Shown here piece after piece: positions 2,656-62,667 of a stretch of 64,000 nt of DNA; position 1 is the first letter of the stretch, and each line of letters opens with the position of its first letter. The notes below the pieces were generated by a model that was given only the letters and a program-made list of their open reading frames with translations, was not told where the DNA came from and ran no database searches. The stretch is from Candidatus Hydrogenedens sp. (lineage in GTDB: Bacteria; Hydrogenedentota; Hydrogenedentia; Hydrogenedentales; Hydrogenedentaceae), in the NCBI GenBank assembly GCA_049968235.1, contig JBMFRC010000001.1, positions 224,001 through 288,000 on the forward strand, read 5' to 3'. The translations under genes and the position numbers were made by a program.

Positions 2656-3399
2656 ATGAAAATGATATTTGTTCGAGCAAAAAATAGTTATTTTTGGTGC
2701 GTTTCCGTCTTTTGTATCTTCATTTTTTCCTACAATCTTTGCTTTGCTCAGACGAGTAGAGATACATCCGAAGGTTGTGGTCCTTATCATTCAAGATATA
2801 ATGTGCAACCACCAGCTAAAGAGATAGAAAAACCCCCGACTCGTTCTCCACTTTCTAATCCCCCAGCAACTTCTATCAAAGCACCTCTCCCTAAAAAATC
2901 TTTGTCAAATCCTCCTGCAGAGGCTAAATCTGCACCGTCTGAAAAAAAACCTGTCGTAAATCCACCGGCTGTCTCTATAAAACAACCACCGAGGAAACTA
3001 TCCGTTTACAATCCTCCTGCAAAACCTATTTCCGCACCTAAACCGAGAAGGTCATTACAATCCCCTCCTGCTCAAGCGAAGTCCGCTCCTCCCCCTAAAA
3101 AACCGATAGAAAATCCACCTACTACCCCTGTTTCTGCCCCGTCAAAGAGGCAACCGTTGTCCGCTCCTCCTGCTCAAGCAAAGTCCGCTCCTCCCCCTAA
3201 AAAACCGATAGAAAATCCACCTACTACCCCTGTTTCTGCCCCGTCAAAGAGGCAACCGTTGTCCGCTCCTCCTGCTCAAGCAAAGTCCACTCCTCCCCCT
3301 AAAATTCCAGTAGGGAAAGAAGACATTTCACGAATTCGTCCTTATTGTGTTGGAGTAAAAGAACCGGGTTCAAAAGATGAAAAGCGGTTTATGCATTAA
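2656..3399 (+). CDS. Secreted proline-rich tandem-repeat protein
   Basis: N-terminal signal peptide (…SYNLCFAQTS). The body consists of degenerate NPPA/SAP(P)K repeats and ends in two perfect 34-aa repeats (SAPPAQAKSAPPPKKPIENPPTTPVSAPSKRQPL). Confidence 0.5.
   Translation: MKMIFVRAKNSYFWCVSVFCIFIFSYNLCFAQTSRDTSEGCGPYHSRYNVQPPAKEIEKPPTRSPLSNPPATSIKAPLPKKSLSNPPAEAKSAPSEKKPVVNPPAVSIKQPPRKLSVYNPPAKPISAPKPRRSLQSPPAQAKSAPPPKKPIENPPTTPVSAPSKRQPLSAPPAQAKSAPPPKKPIENPPTTPVSAPSKRQPLSAPPAQAKSTPPPKIPVGKEDISRIRPYCVGVKEPGSKDEKRFMH
3070..3300. repeat. Tandem 102-bp direct repeat (about 2.3 copies) inside the proline-rich CDS
   Basis: The 102-bp unit gctcaagc(g/a)aagtccgctcctccccctaaaaaaccgatagaaaatccacctactacccctgtttctgccccgtcaaagaggcaaccgttgtccgctcctcct recurs at 3070, 3172 and 3274 (third copy partial), differing only by single substitutions. 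Confidence 0.8.
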
Positions 3400-10285: not shown

Positions 10286-11194
10286 TTATTCCGGGAAAGA
10301 TGTAAGAGATTTTTCGGCGGATTTTACAGTGTTTTTCATAAGCATGGCAATAGTCATAGGTCCAACCCCACCGGGAACCGGTGTAATGGCTCTTGCTTTT
10401 TTGGAAACACTGGGGAAATGAACATCACCCGTCAAACGATAACCTGATTTCCTGGTATTGTCAGGAATACGATTCATTCCCACATCAATAACCACACATC
10501 CTTCACTTACCATTCTACCTTGAATAAATTCGGGGACTCCCATCGCTGCAACCAGTATATCTGCACTTTGGGTAATGTTGCTTAAATTTCGTGTGTGCGA
10601 GTGACAAATCGTAACGGTAGCATCAGCACCTTCCGATTTTTGAACTAATAATGCAGATAAAGGCTTCCCTACAATATTGGAACGACCTACAATAACGACA
10701 TGCTTCCCCTGTATTTTATATCCATATCGTATAAGCAATTCCTGTATACCGGCAGGGGTACATGCCACAAAGCAGTCCTGCCCATTAAGCAATTTGCCCT
10801 TATTAACAGGATGAAATCCATCAACATCTTTACTCGGGTCAATTGCTTCCAGGATTTTTTCTTCATTGATATGTTTAGGCAGAGGGCTCTGGATAAGTAT
10901 TCCATGCACTTCTCTATTACAATTCAGTTTATCTACCAATTTAAGTAAATCTGACTCGGAAGTCTGTTGGGGCAAGTCGTATGCAAAGGAGCGAATTCCT
11001 AATTCTTCGCATGTTTTTCTTTTATTACGAACGTAAATCTGACTGGCAGGATTGTCTCCTACTAAAACTACTGCCAAACCGGGAATAACCCCTTTTTGTC
11101 TTAATCCTTCAATTCTATTTTTTAATTCTAACTTTATAATTTCGCTAAGTTTGACCCCATCTAATAATTTAGGTTTTCTGGGTGCAGGCATCAT
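10286..11194 (-). CDS. folD: Bifunctional 5,10-methylene-THF dehydrogenase / methenyl-THF cyclohydrolase
   Basis: Conserved FolD blocks: YVRNKRKTCEELGI, VVIVGRSNIVGKPLSALL and TPVPGGVGPMTIAMLM. Confidence 0.9.
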   Translation of the reverse strand: MMPAPRKPKLLDGVKLSEIIKLELKNRIEGLRQKGVIPGLAVVLVGDNPASQIYVRNKRKTCEELGIRSFAYDLPQQTSESDLLKLVDKLNCNREVHGILIQSPLPKHINEEKILEAIDPSKDVDGFHPVNKGKLLNGQDCFVACTPAGIQELLIRYGYKIQGKHVVIVGRSNIVGKPLSALLVQKSEGADATVTICHSHTRNLSNITQSADILVAAMGVPEFIQGRMVSEGCVVIDVGMNRIPDNTRKSGYRLTGDVHFPSVSKKARAITPVPGGVGPMTIAMLMKNTVKSAEKSLTSFPE

Positions 11195-11209: not shown

Positions 11210-12667
11210 TTATATTCTGGACGCATTTAACGGGCGGACAACATTAAGTTCCTTAGCCGCTTTAACTTCATCTAACCGTTGAACGGGCGTAGTTACAGGT
11301 GCTTTTCTCAATTCATTCGGGTTGTTTTTTGCCAGTTCTGATAATTCCAGCATCGTATCACAAAACCGGTCCAGAGTTTCCTTTGTTTCTGTCTCTGTGG
11401 GTTCAATCATTAATGCTTCTTTTACAGTTAATGGGAAATAGACTGTTGGTGCATGAAATCCACGGTCAAGCAATGCTTTGGCAAAATCTAAAGCCCTTAT
11501 TTCCCAATCATGATAAGGCATAGCGGTAAGCACACATTCATGCATACATAAACGGTCATAAGCAGGTGGAAAAGCAGAACGAAGTCGTGATAACACATAA
11601 TTGGCATTGAGAACTGCCTTTCGGCTGACTTCCTTCAGTCCTTCATTCCCTTGCATCAAAATATAGACATAAGCACGTACTGCAACTACAAAATGACCCA
11701 AAAAGGGTGCCGACTTACCAATGCTATTTCTGGGGTATTCAAGGCTAAAACCATTACCGTCATTCTTTATTACTCTGGGACCCGGCAAGAACTCCATTAA
11801 TCGTTCATTAACTCCAACGGGACCCGAACCAGGACCACCCATTCCGTGAGGAGTTGCAAAAGTCTTATGAAGATTAAAATGCATCACATCAAACCCCAAA
11901 TCTCCGGGTCGGCATTGTCCTATAATAGCGTTTAGATTGGCACCATCGTAATAAAGCAGTGCATCGTGTTTATGAGCAAGGTCAGCAATCTCATGAATAT
12001 CTTTTTCAAATAAGCCATGTGTATTCGGGCAGGTCAACATAATACCAGCAACCTCATCGTTCATAACTTCACGGAAATGATTTAAATCTAAAGTCCCTTG
12101 TGAATTAGAGGGAACCTCCTGCACCTGAAAGCCCGCTATCGCCGCACTGGCAGGATTTGTCCCATGAGCAGAGTCGGGTATAAGTATTATTTTTTTGTGC
12201 GTATTTTTATGGTATTTATGATAAGCGGACATCATCAATACGCCGGTCAATTCCCCATGTGCCCCTGCCATAGGTTGGAGAGAAACAGCACACATACCTG
12301 AAATTTCACTTAATAATTGTTCCAGATGATACACCAATTCCAGAGCACCTTGAATACAGTCAAGATATACTTCCGAATAGAGTAATTGTGGATGTAATTG
12401 GGTAAATCCTGCAAGGGATGAAACTACATCTGCAATTTTAGGATTGTATTTCATTGTGCAGGAACCTAAGGGATAAAAGTTTGTATCTATCCCCATATTT
12501 CTCTGTGAGAGATGTGTAAAATGACGGACAACATCCAATTCTGAAACTTCAGGAAGTTCTGCGGATTTTTGTCGCTTTAATTCTTGAGGAAATGGAACAT
12601 TCAGTTCCTTTTTGTTGCGAAAAGAGAACGCCTGCCGATGATTGCATTTTTCATAAATCAAATCCAT
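11210..12667 (-). CDS. gcvPB: Glycine dehydrogenase (decarboxylating) subunit 2
   Basis: PLP-lysine region NLHKTFATPHGMGGPG. Length and order match gcvPB. Confidence 0.9.
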   Translation of the reverse strand: MDLIYEKCNHRQAFSFRNKKELNVPFPQELKRQKSAELPEVSELDVVRHFTHLSQRNMGIDTNFYPLGSCTMKYNPKIADVVSSLAGFTQLHPQLLYSEVYLDCIQGALELVYHLEQLLSEISGMCAVSLQPMAGAHGELTGVLMMSAYHKYHKNTHKKIILIPDSAHGTNPASAAIAGFQVQEVPSNSQGTLDLNHFREVMNDEVAGIMLTCPNTHGLFEKDIHEIADLAHKHDALLYYDGANLNAIIGQCRPGDLGFDVMHFNLHKTFATPHGMGGPGSGPVGVNERLMEFLPGPRVIKNDGNGFSLEYPRNSIGKSAPFLGHFVVAVRAYVYILMQGNEGLKEVSRKAVLNANYVLSRLRSAFPPAYDRLCMHECVLTAMPYHDWEIRALDFAKALLDRGFHAPTVYFPLTVKEALMIEPTETETKETLDRFCDTMLELSELAKNNPNELRKAPVTTPVQRLDEVKAAKELNVVRPLNASRI

Positions 12668-12680
12668 ACAATAATTACTC

Positions 12681-14017
12681 CTATGAAATATTTATCTGAA
12701 TAAGTTCGGCGAGCCTGTCTAATTCTTTTTGTGTCCTTTTCTCCGTTACCGCTATAAGCAAATCGCCCTCTTCTCCATAACTATTTCCATTTATATCTTT
12801 ATAAGTCATTTGTTGTTTACAATGTTTTAATAAAGGTTTCAAAGGTATACCGGGCAATATCCCGCTTTCCTTAATTTTTGCAATAACTTTTTCCGCCGGG
12901 ATAGGAAGACGTACAACAAATTCATTGAAAGTAGGTTGAGAATTTACTATCGGTACAAATACACTTAATTTCTTTTTCAGATATTCTGTTTTGGAGTAGC
13001 AATCCTGAGCCACTTCTATCAATCCCTGCTTTCCTACTTCACATAGATAAATCAAAGCACGCAAAGCACATAATGCTTGATTGGAACACACATTTGACAT
13101 GGCTTTTTCGCGTCGGATATGTTGTTCCCTTGCCTGTAAAGTGAGAACAAAACCGCGTTTCCCTTGTTTATCAACTGTCATCGCACATATACGCCCGGGC
13201 ATCTTTCGGATATACTCCTTCTTTGCTGTAAACAATCCTAAATAAGGCCCTCCAAACCCTAAGGGTAATCCTAAACTCTGTCCCTCACCCACAGCAATAT
13301 CTGCCTCCATCTCACCGGGTGTCTTCATAATGCCTAGGGCAATAGGATAAAATTGGATTATCATAAGGGCAGATGCGGAATGGCATTTCTGGGCAAGGGC
13401 AGTGAAATCATGTATGTTTCCAAAAAAATCAGGCGTCGCACCAACAACACAAGCACAACCTTCAGGTTCATCTCCATATTCTAATTCCAATTCAAGGTTT
13501 GCCGTGTGGGTGCGTATCATCTGTTCGTAAATGGGATTTAACCCCGGTATGATTTTTACTTTTCGTTTGCCGGTAACACGAACTGCAAGCATAATTGCTT
13601 CAAATAGGGCTGTTCCGCCGTCATACAAAGAAGCATTTGCTACTTCCATATCTGTCAACCGGCACAAAGCAGTCTGATATTCATAAATGGCTTGAAGTGT
13701 TCCCTGTGAACATTCCGGCTGATAGGGAGTATAGGCTGTAGAAAATTCTCCCCGTTGAGCAAGGTAATCAACTACCGCAGGGATATAGTGGTCATAAAAA
13801 CCACCACCGATAAAAGAAATACAATCCGTCTCATTTTTTTTACTTAATACTTCCAGATGTTGATATGCTTCTATTTCTGATAAACCTTCGGGGATGTTCC
13901 AGGATTGTAATCTAAGGGATGGAGGTATATCTTCAAATAATGAATCAACCGACGAAACACCAATGGTTTGCAACATTTCTTGTTCATCTTTTTGAGTTAC
14001 AGGAATCCACGCCATAA
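12681..14017 (-). CDS. gcvPA: Glycine dehydrogenase (decarboxylating) subunit 1
   Basis: I trimmed the start to MAWIPVTQKDEQEMLQTIGVSS… (ATG at 14015), which is typical of the GcvPA N-terminus. The tracked ORF began 13 codons earlier. Confidence 0.88.
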
Positions 14018-14109
14018 TATATTCCTCAAACCATATTAACTTTAATAAAAACAAATTTCCTTCTGGATGAAAATATCAAGATTCAAATGTGATAATTTTA
14101 AACAACAGA

Positions 14110-14490
14110 TTATAATGATTTGAGATATTTCTCGTATGCTTCACGGTTCATCAATCGGCGATACTGAGCGATGTCAATATCATCCATCTTGAAGCACCAA
14201 CCTTTACCATAGGGGTCAAGATTAATGAGTTCAGGTTCCCCTTCTAATGCCTCATTAACCTCTACGATTACACCTGTAACAGGGGCATAAATATCCTCTG
14301 CCGCCTTTACAGATTCTACCTGTGCCACAGGTTCCTTTTGTCGAACATGTCTGCCCACTTCGGGTAATTCGACATAAGTAACATCGCCCAATTGCTCCTG
14401 TGCATACTCCGAGATACCTACAATATACAATCCATCTTCTTCCCCAATCCATTCATGATTTTCTGTATAGCGAACATCCTCTGGATACAT
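14110..14490 (-). CDS. gcvH: Glycine cleavage system H protein
   Basis: Lipoyl-lysine motif (…AQVESVKAAEDIYAPVTG). 126 aa. Confidence 0.9.
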   Translation of the reverse strand: MYPEDVRYTENHEWIGEEDGLYIVGISEYAQEQLGDVTYVELPEVGRHVRQKEPVAQVESVKAAEDIYAPVTGVIVEVNEALEGEPELINLDPYGKGWCFKMDDIDIAQYRRLMNREAYEKYLKSL

Positions 14491-14553: not shown

Positions 14554-15639
14554 TTATAAGACCTTTTTTCGGGCAGTTCCGTTTGGATAAATGGGGACAT
14601 TACATACCTCAACCTGTAAAGGACGTCCTGCAACCTGCAGAACTGTTCCGGGGATAGCGACCTGTTTATCTAACATAGCTAAACCGACACCAACTCCAAC
14701 ACTGGGGCCATAGGTACCACTGGTAACCTCTCCTACCTCGCTACCTTGAAAGACAAGTTTCTGATTGTGCCGGGGTGCCTGTCGCGTATGCGTTTTTATT
14801 CCCATTAGAACACGATAGTCGCCCCTGTTTTTTTGTTGCAAAAGAAAATCTTTGCCAATAAAATCGTGTTCCCAATCAATGAATCGGTCCATAGAAGCCA
14901 TTAATGGAGTTGTGCCGGGAAGGATATCCTGCCCATTTAAGGGATAACCCATCTCTGTTCGTAATGTATCACGGGCTCCCAGTCCACACGGCTTTACCTC
15001 TGAATGGGATACTAACTTTTCCCAGATGTCAGCACCTATGGATAGGGGAAGATAAAGTTCATAACCTAACTCGCCGGTATAGCCTGCACGTGTTATTATG
15101 ATATTTTCATCTTTCCATTTTAATCTCCCACCTGTCCAATACTTTAATTCTTTAATTTGTGAATTGAAATCTGATTGAAGCAGAACATCTAAGCTTTTAG
15201 GTCCCTGAATATCTATTTTCACAGTGCGTTGACTAATATCTTCTGCATGAACATCAGAATTACATAATAAAGCAGATACCTCTTCTAAAGGTCCCGCATT
15301 AGTTATCACAAATAAAGTTTCATCATCTAATTTAATCCCCACACAGTCATCAAGGATAGAACCGTCAGGGTTTAATAGTGCAGTATATCGGCATTTTCCT
15401 ACAGGAAGAGGTAAAAAATCACCACAAGTGAGAAATGAAAAATGAGCAATTTTATCCCGACCATGGATAATAAATTCTCCCATGTGAGAACAATCAAAAA
15501 TACCCGCGTGGGAACGGACATGTAGGTGTTCCGCAATAATTCCTTCAAATTGAATGGGTAAATACCAGCCATGAAAATCTACAAACCGCCCGCCTGATTT
15601 TTCACAACACTCAAAAAGTGGAGTCTTCTTCAAATCCAA
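14554..15639 (-). CDS. gcvT: Aminomethyltransferase (glycine cleavage T protein)
   Basis: The full-length GcvT fold is recognisable. The start is TTG, preceded by AGGAGA 6 nt upstream. Confidence 0.9.
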   Translation of the reverse strand: MDLKKTPLFECCEKSGGRFVDFHGWYLPIQFEGIIAEHLHVRSHAGIFDCSHMGEFIIHGRDKIAHFSFLTCGDFLPLPVGKCRYTALLNPDGSILDDCVGIKLDDETLFVITNAGPLEEVSALLCNSDVHAEDISQRTVKIDIQGPKSLDVLLQSDFNSQIKELKYWTGGRLKWKDENIIITRAGYTGELGYELYLPLSIGADIWEKLVSHSEVKPCGLGARDTLRTEMGYPLNGQDILPGTTPLMASMDRFIDWEHDFIGKDFLLQQKNRGDYRVLMGIKTHTRQAPRHNQKLVFQGSEVGEVTSGTYGPSVGVGVGLAMLDKQVAIPGTVLQVAGRPLQVEVCNVPIYPNGTARKKVL

Positions 15640-15699
15640 TGAACTTCTCCTATGAGTGACAACACATTTAATTATATGTTATTATGGTATTCAATTATG

Positions 15700-15800
15700 A
15701 TTAAATAAACGAATTTTACGCCCAGGCGAACGGCGCCTTTTATGGTTTTGTCGCTCCCTTGTGGTTTATTCCACTTAAATCGCCAGTTGCGACACATAAA
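15700..15800 (-). promoter_or_regulatory. GC-rich structured 5' leader of gcvT, candidate (single-aptamer?) glycine riboswitch
   Basis: The minus-strand RNA is …CAACUGGCGAUUUAAGUGGAAUAAACCACAAGGGAGCGACAAAACCAUAAAAGGCGCCGUUCGCCUGGGCGUAAAAUUCG…. It contains a P2-like hairpin GUGG…CCAC, then AAGGGAGC (compare CGAAGGAGCAA), then GGCGCCG…CGCC, then CUGGGCGUAAAA (compare CUCAGGCAAAAGGAC). This GC-rich island lies 80-160 nt upstream of a gcv operon in an otherwise AT-rich spacer. Confidence 0.35.
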
Positions 15801-15990
15801 CATAATCTATTATATCAAAATATAACCTTAAACTTCAAGAATTAGTTCTCATAACAAAATTTTATAGTGAAAAAATATAAAATTAAAGTTTTATATGGCA
15901 AATAATTTTATAAAAAATCTTTAAATCTTATAAAAAGCAGGATTTACGGATAATCAAAGAATACTCTATCTAATTTAATAAGAGGAAGTT

Positions 15991-16752
15991 ATGATTAAAC
16001 AACAAGAAAAGAATAATAACCATAACCCTGAAATGGATTTACGACAAAGGGGAGAAATTTTCCGACTGTTTAATCGAATTGCTCGTAAATATGATATAAC
16101 AAACCATTTATTATCTTTTGGTCAGGATGCTCATTGGCGAAGGGAACTTGTTCGTCAAATTCAGATAGAAAAAGGACAGGATTTTTTTTTATTAGACCTT
16201 GCAACAGGGACAGGAGAGGTTATAAAAACTTTTCGAGAATTCTTTCCTGATTTGGGTTGTGTTATTGGAATAGACCTTTCCGTAGGGATGATACGGGAAG
16301 GGATGGAGAAACTTCCGAATAATACACAGAAGCACTTATTTGCTGTTATGGATGTTCTATATCCGGGCATCAAATCCGAGACCATCAATGTAGTAACAAT
16401 GGCTTTCGGAATACGCAATGTATCAGAAGTTTCTCTGTCATTGAAAGAAATCTACCGTGTATTGAAACCCGGAGGACAGGTATTAATTCTTGAATTTGGT
16501 CTTCCCCAAAAAGGGTTATGGAGAACGATATACCTATTTTACTTGCGATATTTGCTCCCATATATAGGTGGTTTCTGGACAGGTTGCCCTTCTGCATACC
16601 GATATTTAAGCGAAACAATATGCAAATTTCCTTCTCATAATCACTTTTCTTTATTATTAGAAGAAGTAGGTTTTACAAATGCAAAATGGACAGAATTCAA
16701 CCGCGGTGCTGTATTGTTATACACTGCCAGTAAACCCGGTAAAAGCGAATAA
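15991..16752 (+). CDS. ubiE: Demethylmenaquinone / ubiquinone-menaquinone biosynthesis C-methyltransferase
   Basis: FNRIARKYDITNHLLSFGQDAHWRR matches the UbiE/MenG N-terminal signature. SAM motif I LDLATGTGEV. Post-I motif LKPGG. Confidence 0.8.
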   Translation: MIKQQEKNNNHNPEMDLRQRGEIFRLFNRIARKYDITNHLLSFGQDAHWRRELVRQIQIEKGQDFFLLDLATGTGEVIKTFREFFPDLGCVIGIDLSVGMIREGMEKLPNNTQKHLFAVMDVLYPGIKSETINVVTMAFGIRNVSEVSLSLKEIYRVLKPGGQVLILEFGLPQKGLWRTIYLFYLRYLLPYIGGFWTGCPSAYRYLSETICKFPSHNHFSLLLEEVGFTNAKWTEFNRGAVLLYTASKPGKSE

Positions 16753-62417: not shown

Positions 62418-62437
62418 TTGAGTCTTTTTATATTTGA

Positions 62438-62483
62438 CATATCACTAATTTTCTTATTTACATATCACTAATTTTCTTATTTA
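62438..62483. repeat. Perfect tandem duplication of a 23-bp unit (catatcactaattttcttattta x2)
   Basis: Copy 1 at 62438-62460. Copy 2 at 62461-62483. Lies in the leader/promoter region immediately upstream of the minus-strand dockerin/cohesin cluster. Confidence 0.8.
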
Positions 62484-62667
62484 ATTATACACTATTTAAA
62501 TAACATTTTGAAATTTTTTTGTAACATTTTTCGTTCATATTAGTAAAATAATAGAGAATAGGTTCTTTGAAAATTGAATATTAAGGTAATGAAGCAAGAG
62601 TTTTTAATATCCCTTCCTTACCTCTCTCCTTATAAATAAATCTTCCCTTAAACTCTCTTCATATCCT

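What the first reader, a model, noticed from the sequence alone, without database searches (positions are those of the whole stretch)
15700..15800. Structured GC-rich leader upstream of the gcvT-H-PA-PB-folD operon resembling a glycine riboswitch aptamer
The intergenic spacer is about 25% GC, but an 80-nt island is about 55% GC. The minus-strand RNA contains, in order: CUGGCGA, a hairpin GUGGAAUAAACCAC, AAGGGAGCGAC, a hairpin AGGCGCCGUUCGCCU, and CUGGGCGUAAAA. These echo the P1-GGAGAG / P2 / CGAAGGAGCAA / P3 / CUCAGGCAAAAGGAC order of glycine aptamers, which classically control gcvT. Only one aptamer-like unit is visible, making this a singlet, and several conserved positions deviate. It could therefore be a divergent variant.
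Basis: partly seen in the sequence, partly recalled or inferred. Interest (0 to 1): 0.5.

Follow-up and report, generated by a model that had tools for sequence, protein, structure and literature searches.

The report
ZTP riboswitch, not glycine, before gcvT
The GC-rich island upstream of the glycine-cleavage/folD operon is an ordinary ZMP/ZTP ("pfl") riboswitch that senses folate shortage, not a glycine riboswitch; it is a known RNA class, seen here in an uncultured Hydrogenedens bacterium.

Summary
Rfam places a full-length ZMP/ZTP (pfl, RF01750) aptamer at 15713-15800(-), scoring 64.6 bits against a gathering score of 39. The glycine model RF00504 does not appear even at E<=10. The same aptamer sits upstream of gcvT in every Hydrogenedentota relative with enough upstream DNA, except L026 and L028 (lineage unknown). 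That gives 19 non-redundant copies, down to 51% GcvT identity. P1 covaries strongly. A conserved extended -10 promoter puts the transcription start about 2 nt before the aptamer. The downstream genes gcvT-H-PA-PB-folD convert glycine to 10-formyl-THF, the cofactor whose shortage raises ZMP, so an ON switch makes sense. No terminator follows the aptamer. Translational control through pairing of the pseudoknot/P3 strand with the ribosome-binding site is the likeliest platform. It is clear in GC-rich relatives but weak in this window. A conserved AU-rich block in the leader looks like an antisense promoter facing the gcvT promoter. Verdict: a new member of a known class, of low interest.

The parts
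15809..15838 (-). gcvT operon promoter: -35 TTGAAG (15838-15833), 18-nt spacer with TG (15817-15816), -10 TATAAT (15814-15809). Predicted transcription start about 15802.
   Evidence: The consensus scan scores it 10/12 with TG. The hexamers are conserved in all close relatives (A1). Coordinates verified. The start site is inferred, not measured.
15713..15800 (-). ZMP/ZTP (pfl) riboswitch aptamer, full length
   Evidence: RF01750 scores 64.6 bits (gathering score 39), covers model positions 1-86 of 86, and has E=3.5e-08.
15789..15798 (-). P1 5' strand UAUGUGUCGC. The inner 6 pairs (plus one further U-A) are canonical in this copy.
   Evidence: cmscan alignment. Eight of 12 P1/P1b pairs show changes on both sides across 19 sequences.
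15745..15754 (-). P1 3' strand GCGACAAAAC
15781..15784 (-).
   Evidence: Complementary to CGCC at 15728-15725 and invariant in 19/19 sequences. The pseudoknot assignment comes from the published ZTP architecture (my own knowledge). It is not in the Rfam structure line.
15761..15774 (-). P2 hairpin GUGG-AAUAAA-CCAC
   Evidence: 96% of cells paired, almost invariant.
15718..15736 (-). 3' subdomain: P3 (GCGCC 15736-15732 / GGCGU 15722-15718) with loop GUUCGCCUG, which carries the pseudoknot strand CGCC (15728-15725)
   Evidence: The second pair from the outer end of P3 (A3 columns 76/92) takes the forms UA, CG, UG and AU across relatives.
15721..15730 (-). Candidate switching strand UUCGCCUGGG (proposed anti-Shine-Dalgarno in the ligand-free state)
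   Evidence: It can form 8 of 10 pairs with CAUAGGAGAA at 15654-15645. The equivalent pairing is strong in L020, L021, L023 and L025 but not above background in this window (fraction 0.47). Inferred.
15637..15651 (-). Ribosome-binding site AGGAGA (15651-15646) and the UUG start codon of gcvT (15639-15637)
   Evidence: Invariant AGGAGA and UUG in the close clade. The GcvT profile match starts at residue 2.
14554..15639 (-). gcvT (aminomethyltransferase)
   Evidence: NCBIfam NF001567, 337.6 bits.
14110..14490 (-). gcvH
   Evidence: NCBIfam NF002270, 162.5 bits.
12681..14054 (-). gcvPA
   Evidence: NCBIfam NF001696, 542.4 bits.
11210..12667 (-). gcvPB
   Evidence: NCBIfam NF003346, 681.3 bits.
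10286..11194 (-). folD (methylene-THF dehydrogenase/cyclohydrolase), last gene of the operon
   Evidence: NCBIfam FolD models at about 350-390 bits. There is a 15-nt gap after gcvPB and a convergent DJ-1 gene beyond folD.
15656..15685 (+). Side feature: antisense promoter-like element inside the gcvT leader (GTGACA, 18-nt spacer, TGT-TATTAT), pointing toward ubiE/menG
   Evidence: scores it 10/12 with TG. It is one of only two exact matches to TGA-N17-TGNTANNAT in the 64-kb window; the other is the gcvT promoter. It is kept at the same position in all close-clade loci. Not shown to be active.

Best explanation
The island is the aptamer of a ZMP/ZTP (pfl) riboswitch at the 5' end of the gcvT-gcvH-gcvPA-gcvPB-folD mRNA of a Candidatus Hydrogenedens bacterium. 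When 10-formyl-THF is short, the purine intermediate ZMP (AICAR monophosphate) and its triphosphate ZTP build up. Binding locks together the 5' subdomain (P1/P2) and the 3' subdomain (P3) through the GGCG/CGCC pseudoknot, and expression of the operon rises. The operon converts glycine to 5,10-methylene-THF (glycine cleavage system) and then to 10-formyl-THF (FolD), which relieves the shortage. Shown here: family membership, the fold, conservation, position in the 5' UTR, and gene content. Inferred from what is known of the family: the ligand and the ON direction. Inferred here, and only moderately likely (about 0.55): the output is translational. On that view, without ligand the pseudoknot/P3 strand UUCGCCUGGG pairs with the Shine-Dalgarno region CAUAGGAGAA, and ligand binding withdraws that strand and frees the ribosome-binding site.
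For: RF01750 matches at 64.6 bits (gathering score 39) over the full model length. The same aptamer at 55-68 bits lies upstream of gcvT in all 5 GTDB relatives, in 7 of the 8 metagenome loci, where the eighth (L012) starts inside the aptamer tail, and in 10 of 12 more distant GcvT homologs at 51-64% identity. In the covariation count on 19 non-redundant copies, 86.8% of cells are paired against 38-48% for the slid controls. Eight of 12 P1 pairs change on both sides, and 0 of 500 shuffles reach the observed covariation score. The pseudoknot strands are complementary and invariant. A conserved promoter places the start site about 2 nt before the aptamer. The downstream genes are confirmed. folD is a classic pfl/ZTP target, and pfl RNAs are associated with formyl-THF and purine genes (PMC2864571; PMC7266159). 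No terminator follows the aptamer on the minus strand. For the translational platform: L020 has AUC-G-CCUGGG x CCCAGG-A-GAU over the SD (background fraction 0.010). L021 has AUCGCCUG x CAGGCGAU over the AUG (0.035). L023 has UCGCCU x AGGCGA within GGGAGGCGA, and L025 matches L020. Seventeen of 19 loci fall below 0.5, and the rough Fisher p is 0.005-0.013. The P3-loop base and the base after AGGAGA change together: U/A in the window clade, A/U in L020 and L025.
Against: Ligand binding and the ON direction were not tested here. In this window the proposed anti-SD duplex is only -7.3 kcal/mol and no better than the locus background (fraction 0.47), and shuffled SD regions pair about as well. The window's minimum-free-energy fold pairs the SD with CUCC at codons 7-8 instead. 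The L012/L017-L019 clade uses a different, local anti-SD hairpin (UUCCUCG...GGAGG) whose link to the aptamer I could not work out. The Fisher combination treats related sequences as independent.
Confidence: 0.9

Rival explanations
1. It is a divergent singlet glycine riboswitch. Glycine would bind a P1-P2-P3 three-way junction and turn on the glycine cleavage operon.
For: Only context supports this. gcvT operons are the classic glycine-riboswitch targets (PMC7266159), and there is a loose resemblance in the order of purine-rich motifs.
Against: RF00504 is absent even at E<=10 on 501 nt and absent at the gathering score in all 28 loci. The same bases match ZTP end to end. Covariation supports the ZTP helices.
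Confidence: 0.01
2. It is a ZTP riboswitch, but the output is not translational. Ligand binding would control transcription elongation (Rho-dependent or an atypical terminator) or mRNA stability (exposure of AU-rich RNase sites in the 80-nt leader).
For: Most characterised ZTP riboswitches are transcriptional (PMC2864571; PMC7484762). The anti-SD pairing in this window is not above background. The leader after the aptamer is long (80 nt) and very AU-rich.
Against: There is no hairpin plus U-tract on the minus strand between the aptamer and gcvT (sequence read). The stretch just after the aptamer is the least conserved part of the leader. The leader is C-poor, which is unlike a Rho loading site. 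GC-rich relatives show clear complementarity between the pseudoknot strand and the start region.
Confidence: 0.25
3. The conserved island serves the opposite strand, for example as a structured 5' UTR or antisense RNA of the divergent ubiE/menG gene, and the minus-strand ZTP match is incidental.
For: A conserved promoter-like element at 15656-15685(+) would transcribe through the island toward ubiE.
Against: The covariance-model match is on the minus strand only. The aptamer persists upstream of gcvT in relatives with other upstream neighbours and no antisense element (L013, L017-L025, L027).
Confidence: 0.02

Closest known systems
ZMP/ZTP riboswitch (pfl motif, Rfam RF01750); studied examples include Fusobacterium ulcerans and the Clostridium beijerinckii pfl riboswitch
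   Same: The two-subdomain architecture (P1/P2, a variable linker, P3), the GGCG/CGCC pseudoknot and all strongly conserved core nucleotides. It lies in the 5' UTR of one-carbon metabolism genes that include folD. The expected ON logic is the same.
   Different: No intrinsic terminator overlaps the 3' strand, and the output is probably translational. The first controlled gene is gcvT, which the papers I could read do not name among the common targets (purH, fhs, pfl, glyA, folD in PMC2864571). The host is the candidate phylum Hydrogenedentota, where the ZTP-gcvT arrangement is widespread.
Glycine riboswitch (gcvT motif, Rfam RF00504)
   Same: The genomic context is the same: a leader of a glycine cleavage operon. 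Both would be ON switches for gcvT.
   Different: The fold, the conserved core and the ligand all differ, and the sequence shows no match to the model at E<=10.
Translationally acting riboswitches in which the 3' strand of the aptamer doubles as the anti-Shine-Dalgarno sequence (general design; established knowledge)
   Same: The strand that closes the aptamer (here the pseudoknot/P3 strand) is complementary to the ribosome-binding region. This is clearest in L020, L021, L023 and L025.
   Different: In this window the complementarity is imperfect (8 of 10 pairs, 2 mismatches), lies about 65 nt away, and is statistically indistinguishable from background.

Membership tests
ZMP/ZTP riboswitch (RF01750) | Covariance-model score at or above Rfam's gathering score (39 bits), over the full model | tested here: met
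   64.6 bits, model positions 1-86 of 86, E=3.5e-08 on 64 kb. Homologs score 55-68 bits.
ZMP/ZTP riboswitch (RF01750) | 5' subdomain with P1 and P2, 3' subdomain with the P3 hairpin, joined by a variable linker | tested here: met
   cmscan alignment. On 19 sequences, 8 of 12 P1 pairs change on both sides, P3 has one covarying pair, and linker length varies. 86.8% of cells are paired against 38-48% in the slid controls.
ZMP/ZTP riboswitch (RF01750) | Pseudoknot between GGCG in the P1/P2 junction and CGCC in the P3 loop | tested here: met
   Both strands are present (15784-15781 and 15728-15725), complementary and invariant in 19/19 sequences. Invariance means there is no covariation evidence either way.
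ZMP/ZTP riboswitch (RF01750) | Conserved core nucleotides ACUGGCG, GUGGA...ACCAC, GgGgAgC, GCCG..CGCCUGGGC | tested here: met
   All the upper-case consensus positions in these blocks match; the only upper-case mismatch is the unpaired G just after P2 (consensus cG, AA in the window clade), and relatives vary there (AA, CG, GG).
ZMP/ZTP riboswitch (RF01750) | Located in the 5' UTR of purine or one-carbon (formyl-THF) metabolism genes | tested here: met
   Promoter at 15838-15809, aptamer, then gcvT...folD. Gene associations of the family are from PMC2864571.
ZMP/ZTP riboswitch (RF01750) | Binds ZMP/ZTP selectively | not testable with these tools
   This needs in-line probing or ITC.
ZMP/ZTP riboswitch (RF01750) | Expression platform that competes for the 3' pseudoknot/P3 strand | tested here: inconclusive
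   No terminator is present. Pairing between the switching strand and the start region is strong in L020 and L021 (background fractions 0.010 and 0.035) but scores 0.47 in the window.
Glycine riboswitch (RF00504) | Covariance-model score at or above the gathering score | tested here: not met
   No RF00504 match at E<=10 in 15550-16050, none at the gathering score in the window, and none in any related locus.
Glycine riboswitch (RF00504) | Conserved helices consistent with the glycine aptamer fold | tested here: not met
The helices supported by covariation are those of ZTP.
Glycine riboswitch (RF00504) | Upstream of glycine catabolism or transport genes | tested here: met
   gcvT-H-PA-PB lie downstream. 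This is context only and does not define the RNA class.

The most novel reading that the evidence does not exclude
In the Hydrogenedens clade the riboswitch sits between two face-to-face promoters: the gcvT promoter and a strictly conserved antisense promoter inside the gcvT 5' UTR (15656-15685, + strand) that abuts the Shine-Dalgarno region. If active, the antisense promoter would make an RNA complementary to the whole ZTP aptamer. That RNA would be either a long ubiE/menG leader or a short antisense RNA ending at the terminator-like antisense of P3 (15724-15738 plus a T-run). Riboswitch output and expression of the divergent SAM-dependent quinone methyltransferase would then be coupled by transcriptional interference or RNA-RNA pairing. 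Separately, ZTP rather than glycine appears to be the usual controller of the glycine cleavage operon across the sampled Hydrogenedentota, using translational platforms.
Probability: 0.2. Interest if true: 0.45.

Novelty: new member of a known kind. Interest (0 to 1): 0.2.

Why it matters
It corrects an annotation: the operon responds to folate/one-carbon stress (ZMP/ZTP), not to glycine. This changes how glycine catabolism in these uncultured anaerobic-digester bacteria should be read. Here the glycine cleavage system is wired as a supplier of 10-formyl-THF together with FolD. It also shows that the ZTP class extends, with a stable gene association and non-terminator platforms, across a candidate phylum for which I found no riboswitch literature. 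Beyond that, it is a textbook member of a curated Rfam family that a standard Rfam scan detects at its gathering threshold.

Tried and rejected
1. **Glycine model.** No hit at E<=10.

2. **Intrinsic terminator after the aptamer.** None on the minus strand and none seen by eye in the AU-rich tail.

3. **Duplex energy of the P3 region against the SD region, compared with shuffled SD.** This did not discriminate (fractions 0.03-0.73).

4. **SD accessibility, unconstrained against aptamer-locked.** The SD stays mostly paired in both states. Only L003, L004 and L011 show clear opening.

5. **Ranked duplex test against the within-locus background.** There is only a weak overall trend, and the window scores 0.47.

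6. **RNA hairpin AUAACAUAU/AUGUGUUGU in the conserved leader block.** RNAalifold does not recover it, and L004, L005 and L014 break 2-3 of its 9 pairs with no compensation. I rejected it in favour of a DNA-level reading.

7. **Leader peptide in the block.** AUG-UGU-UGU-CAC-UCA-UAG exists in the window, but the frame and the AUG are not conserved (L005 lacks the AUG; sequences).

8. **Block as a recurring operator.** It is unique in the window, and the inverted-repeat pattern is not enriched.

9. **Hairpin enclosing the start codon** (SD x codons 7-8; CACUCA x UGAGUG). There is no consensus across clades, and the synonymous GAG>GAA change in five relatives is not compensated.

10. **Literature.** I found no paper linking pfl/ZTP to glycine cleavage operons or to Hydrogenedentes. 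The Kim et al. 2015 validation paper is not held, so I cannot exclude that it lists gcvT.

11. **First promoter-format pattern.** It had the wrong spacing and was corrected.

Full report
**Observation.** The 351-nt gcvT-ubiE intergenic region is 27.1% GC. The 88-nt element is 46.6% GC, the best 80 nt reach 51%, and the remainder is 20.5%. NCBIfam confirms the downstream minus-strand genes: gcvT (14554-15639), gcvH (14110-14490), gcvPA (12681-14054), gcvPB (11210-12667) and folD (10286-11194). The divergent plus-strand gene at 15991-16752 is a UbiE/MenG methyltransferase.

**What it is.** A scan of the whole window against Rfam at gathering thresholds gives one hit: RF01750, the ZMP/ZTP riboswitch (pfl motif). 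It lies at 15713-15800(-), scores 64.6 bits against a gathering score of 39, and covers model positions 1-86 of 86. A permissive scan (E<=10) of 15550-16050 again finds ZTP (E=2.7e-10) and only noise otherwise. The glycine family RF00504 is not listed at all.

- CUGGCGA holds the 5' pseudoknot strand GGCG (15784-15781).
- GUGG-AAUAAA-CCAC is P2 (15774-15761).
- AAGGGAGCGAC holds the GG that pairs with the CU of CUGGCGA (the inner end of P1) and the start of the main P1 3' strand, which in full is GCGACAAAAC (15754-15745).
- GCGCC/GGCGU is P3 (15736-15732 / 15722-15718).
- The P3 loop GUUCGCCUG carries the 3' pseudoknot strand CGCC (15728-15725).

**Source and conservation.**
- **Source.** GcvT is 100% identical to a partial NCBI protein from Candidatus Hydrogenedens sp. 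(P0009). Its nearest genomes are Ca. Hydrogenedens MAGs at 76-88% identity.
- **Where the aptamer is found.** RF01750 aptamers lie just upstream of gcvT in all five of those genomes. They are also in seven of eight metagenome loci, where the eighth contig (L012) begins inside the aptamer tail CTGGGCA. Ten of twelve more distant homologs at 51-64% GcvT identity carry one as well, several of them labelled Hydrogenedentes.
- **Exceptions.** The two loci without it are L026, whose gcvT is not followed by gcvH/P, and L028.
- **Covariation.** On 19 non-redundant aptamers (A3) I counted pairs for the ZTP structure including the pseudoknot. 86.8% of cells pair, against 38-48% when partners are slid by 1-3 columns. 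Eight of 12 P1 pairs change on both sides (for example GC:15/AU:4, UA:10/CG:7, CG:15/GC:3). No shuffle out of 500 reaches the observed covariation score. P2 and the pseudoknot are invariant, which says nothing for or against those pairs.

**Transcript.** A promoter TTGAAG-N18(TG)-TATAAT at 15838-15809(-) is conserved in the close clade. It predicts a start near 15802, about 2 nt before the aptamer. This is inferred and not measured.

**Physiological logic** (established biochemistry; family properties from PMC2864571 and PMC7266159). ZMP/ZTP accumulates when 10-formyl-THF is limiting. The glycine cleavage system makes 5,10-methylene-THF from glycine, and FolD converts that to 10-formyl-THF. 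An ON switch on gcvT-H-PA-PB-folD is therefore coherent, and folD is a classic pfl/ZTP target. [quoted passage not shown] I found none that mentions a ZTP-controlled gcvT operon or Hydrogenedentes. The 2015 validation paper is not held.

**Expression platform.**
- **No terminator.** No hairpin plus U-tract follows the aptamer on the minus strand, and the 15-20 nt just after the aptamer are the least conserved part of the leader.
- **GC-rich relatives.** Here the strand that forms the pseudoknot and closes P3 is clearly complementary to the translation start region:
  - L020: AUC-G-CCUGGG x CCCAGG-A-GAU, covering the SD.
  - L025: the same design as L020.
  - L021: AUCGCCUG x CAGGCGAU, overlapping the AUG.
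  - L023: UCGCCU x AGGCGA, inside GGGAGGCGA.
  - L022: P3 strands against the SD and codons 1-3.
- **This window.** The equivalent pairing is UUCGCCUGGG (15730-15721) x CAUAGGAGAA (15654-15645), with 8 of 10 pairs.
- **One co-varying position.** The P3-loop base and the base after AGGAGA change together: U/A in the window clade, A/U in L020 and L025.
- **Statistics are weak.** Against all other windows of the same locus, the start region is an outstanding partner only in L020 (0.010), L021 (0.035) and nearly L011 (0.052). Seventeen of 19 loci fall below 0.5 (rough Fisher p 0.005-0.013, with non-independent data), and the window itself scores 0.47.
- **Other tests.** Shuffle controls and accessibility modelling were also inconclusive.
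- **Competing fold.** The window's minimum-free-energy fold instead pairs the SD with CUCC at codons 7-8. That hairpin has no comparative support.
- **A different design elsewhere.** The L012/L017-L019 clade has a local anti-SD hairpin, UUCCUCG...GGAGG.
- **Conclusion.** I rate translational ON control through the pseudoknot/P3 strand as the most likely mechanism (about 0.55), with a non-translational output as the main rival (about 0.25).

**The conserved AU-rich block (15655-15697).** This roughly 45-nt stretch of the leader is nearly invariant in the close clade and unique in the window. An RNA hairpin reading fails (and uncompensated mismatches in L004, L005 and L014). Read on the plus strand, it is GTGAYA-N18-TGT-TATTAT. 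The two islands and the 18-nt spacing are invariant, while the spacer sequence diverges in L014. The format TGA-N17-TGNTANNAT has only two exact matches in the 64-kb window: this element and the gcvT promoter, facing each other across the riboswitch. The element is kept at the same place in all close-clade loci and is missing from L013, which also lacks the ubiE neighbour within its 1.5 kb of upstream flank. It is probably an antisense promoter directed toward ubiE/menG. Its activity, and any interplay with the riboswitch, are untested. ubiE also has a conserved proximal -10-like GATAAT at 15949-15954.

**Verdict.** This is a canonical ZMP/ZTP riboswitch, so the glycine reading is refuted while the more general 'riboswitch leader of this operon' reading stands. 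It is a new member of a known family, with a slightly unusual first target gene and a probable translational platform, and of low interest overall. The face-to-face promoter arrangement is the only feature that might repay follow-up.

Noticed in passing
window 15656-15685 (+), within the conserved block 15655-15697: Promoter-like element GTGACA-N18-TGT-TATTAT inside the gcvT 5' UTR, antisense to it and facing the gcvT promoter. It is one of only two matches to this promoter format in 64 kb. It is strictly conserved in all close relatives that have ubiE as neighbour, and absent in L013. Its transcript would be complementary to the whole ZTP aptamer.
   Followed up: partly
window 15724-15738 (+) plus the following T-run: The antisense of P3 forms a terminator-like hairpin, AGGCG-AACGG-CGCCT followed by TTTTATGGTTT. 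Together with the antisense promoter this could define a roughly 55-nt antisense RNA. L009 has a 7-T run at the same place.
   Followed up: no
window 15934-15954 (+): Conserved AAAAAGCAGGATTT...(G/T)ATAAT about 35-40 nt upstream of the ubiE/menG ATG. It is a likely proximal ubiE promoter or regulator site.
   Followed up: no
window 15637-15639 (-) and homologous positions in L001-L005, L009, L011-L013, L017-L019: gcvT uses a UUG start codon in every AT-rich Hydrogenedens-type relative. The GC-rich relatives use AUG, or GUG in L020, where the called AUG start looks 27 nt too far upstream.
   Followed up: partly
L012 (46-70), L017, L018, L019 (about 1160-1200): This clade (60-64% GcvT identity) has a different leader, with a local anti-SD hairpin UUCCUCG-N6-9-GGAGG. 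The same UUCCUCG is also complementary to CGAGGAA at codons 10-12. I could not work out how it connects to the ZTP aptamer.
   Followed up: partly
L021 2299-2775 and L023 2301-2777: A PilZ-domain gene (158 aa) is inserted between gcvT and gcvH in two GC-rich relatives, downstream of the ZTP riboswitch.
   Followed up: no
L024 988-1200: An unusually long (220-nt) leader lies between the ZTP aptamer and gcvT, with two hairpin-plus-U-run elements. It may be a transcriptional platform or a second element.
   Followed up: no
L026, L028: Two GcvT homologs at 51% identity have no ZTP or glycine riboswitch at the gathering score. L026's gcvT is followed by ABC-transporter permease genes rather than gcvH/P.
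   Followed up: no
window 62425-62494: An AT-rich 23-nt tandem repeat, TATTTACATATCACTAATTTTCT, in about 2.7 copies, in the intergenic region between ORFs ending at 61844 and 63067.
   Followed up: no
window 3064-3304: A 102-nt tandem repeat in 2.4 copies at 98% identity, inside ORF 2656-3399. It is proline/serine-rich coding repeat sequence.
   Followed up: no
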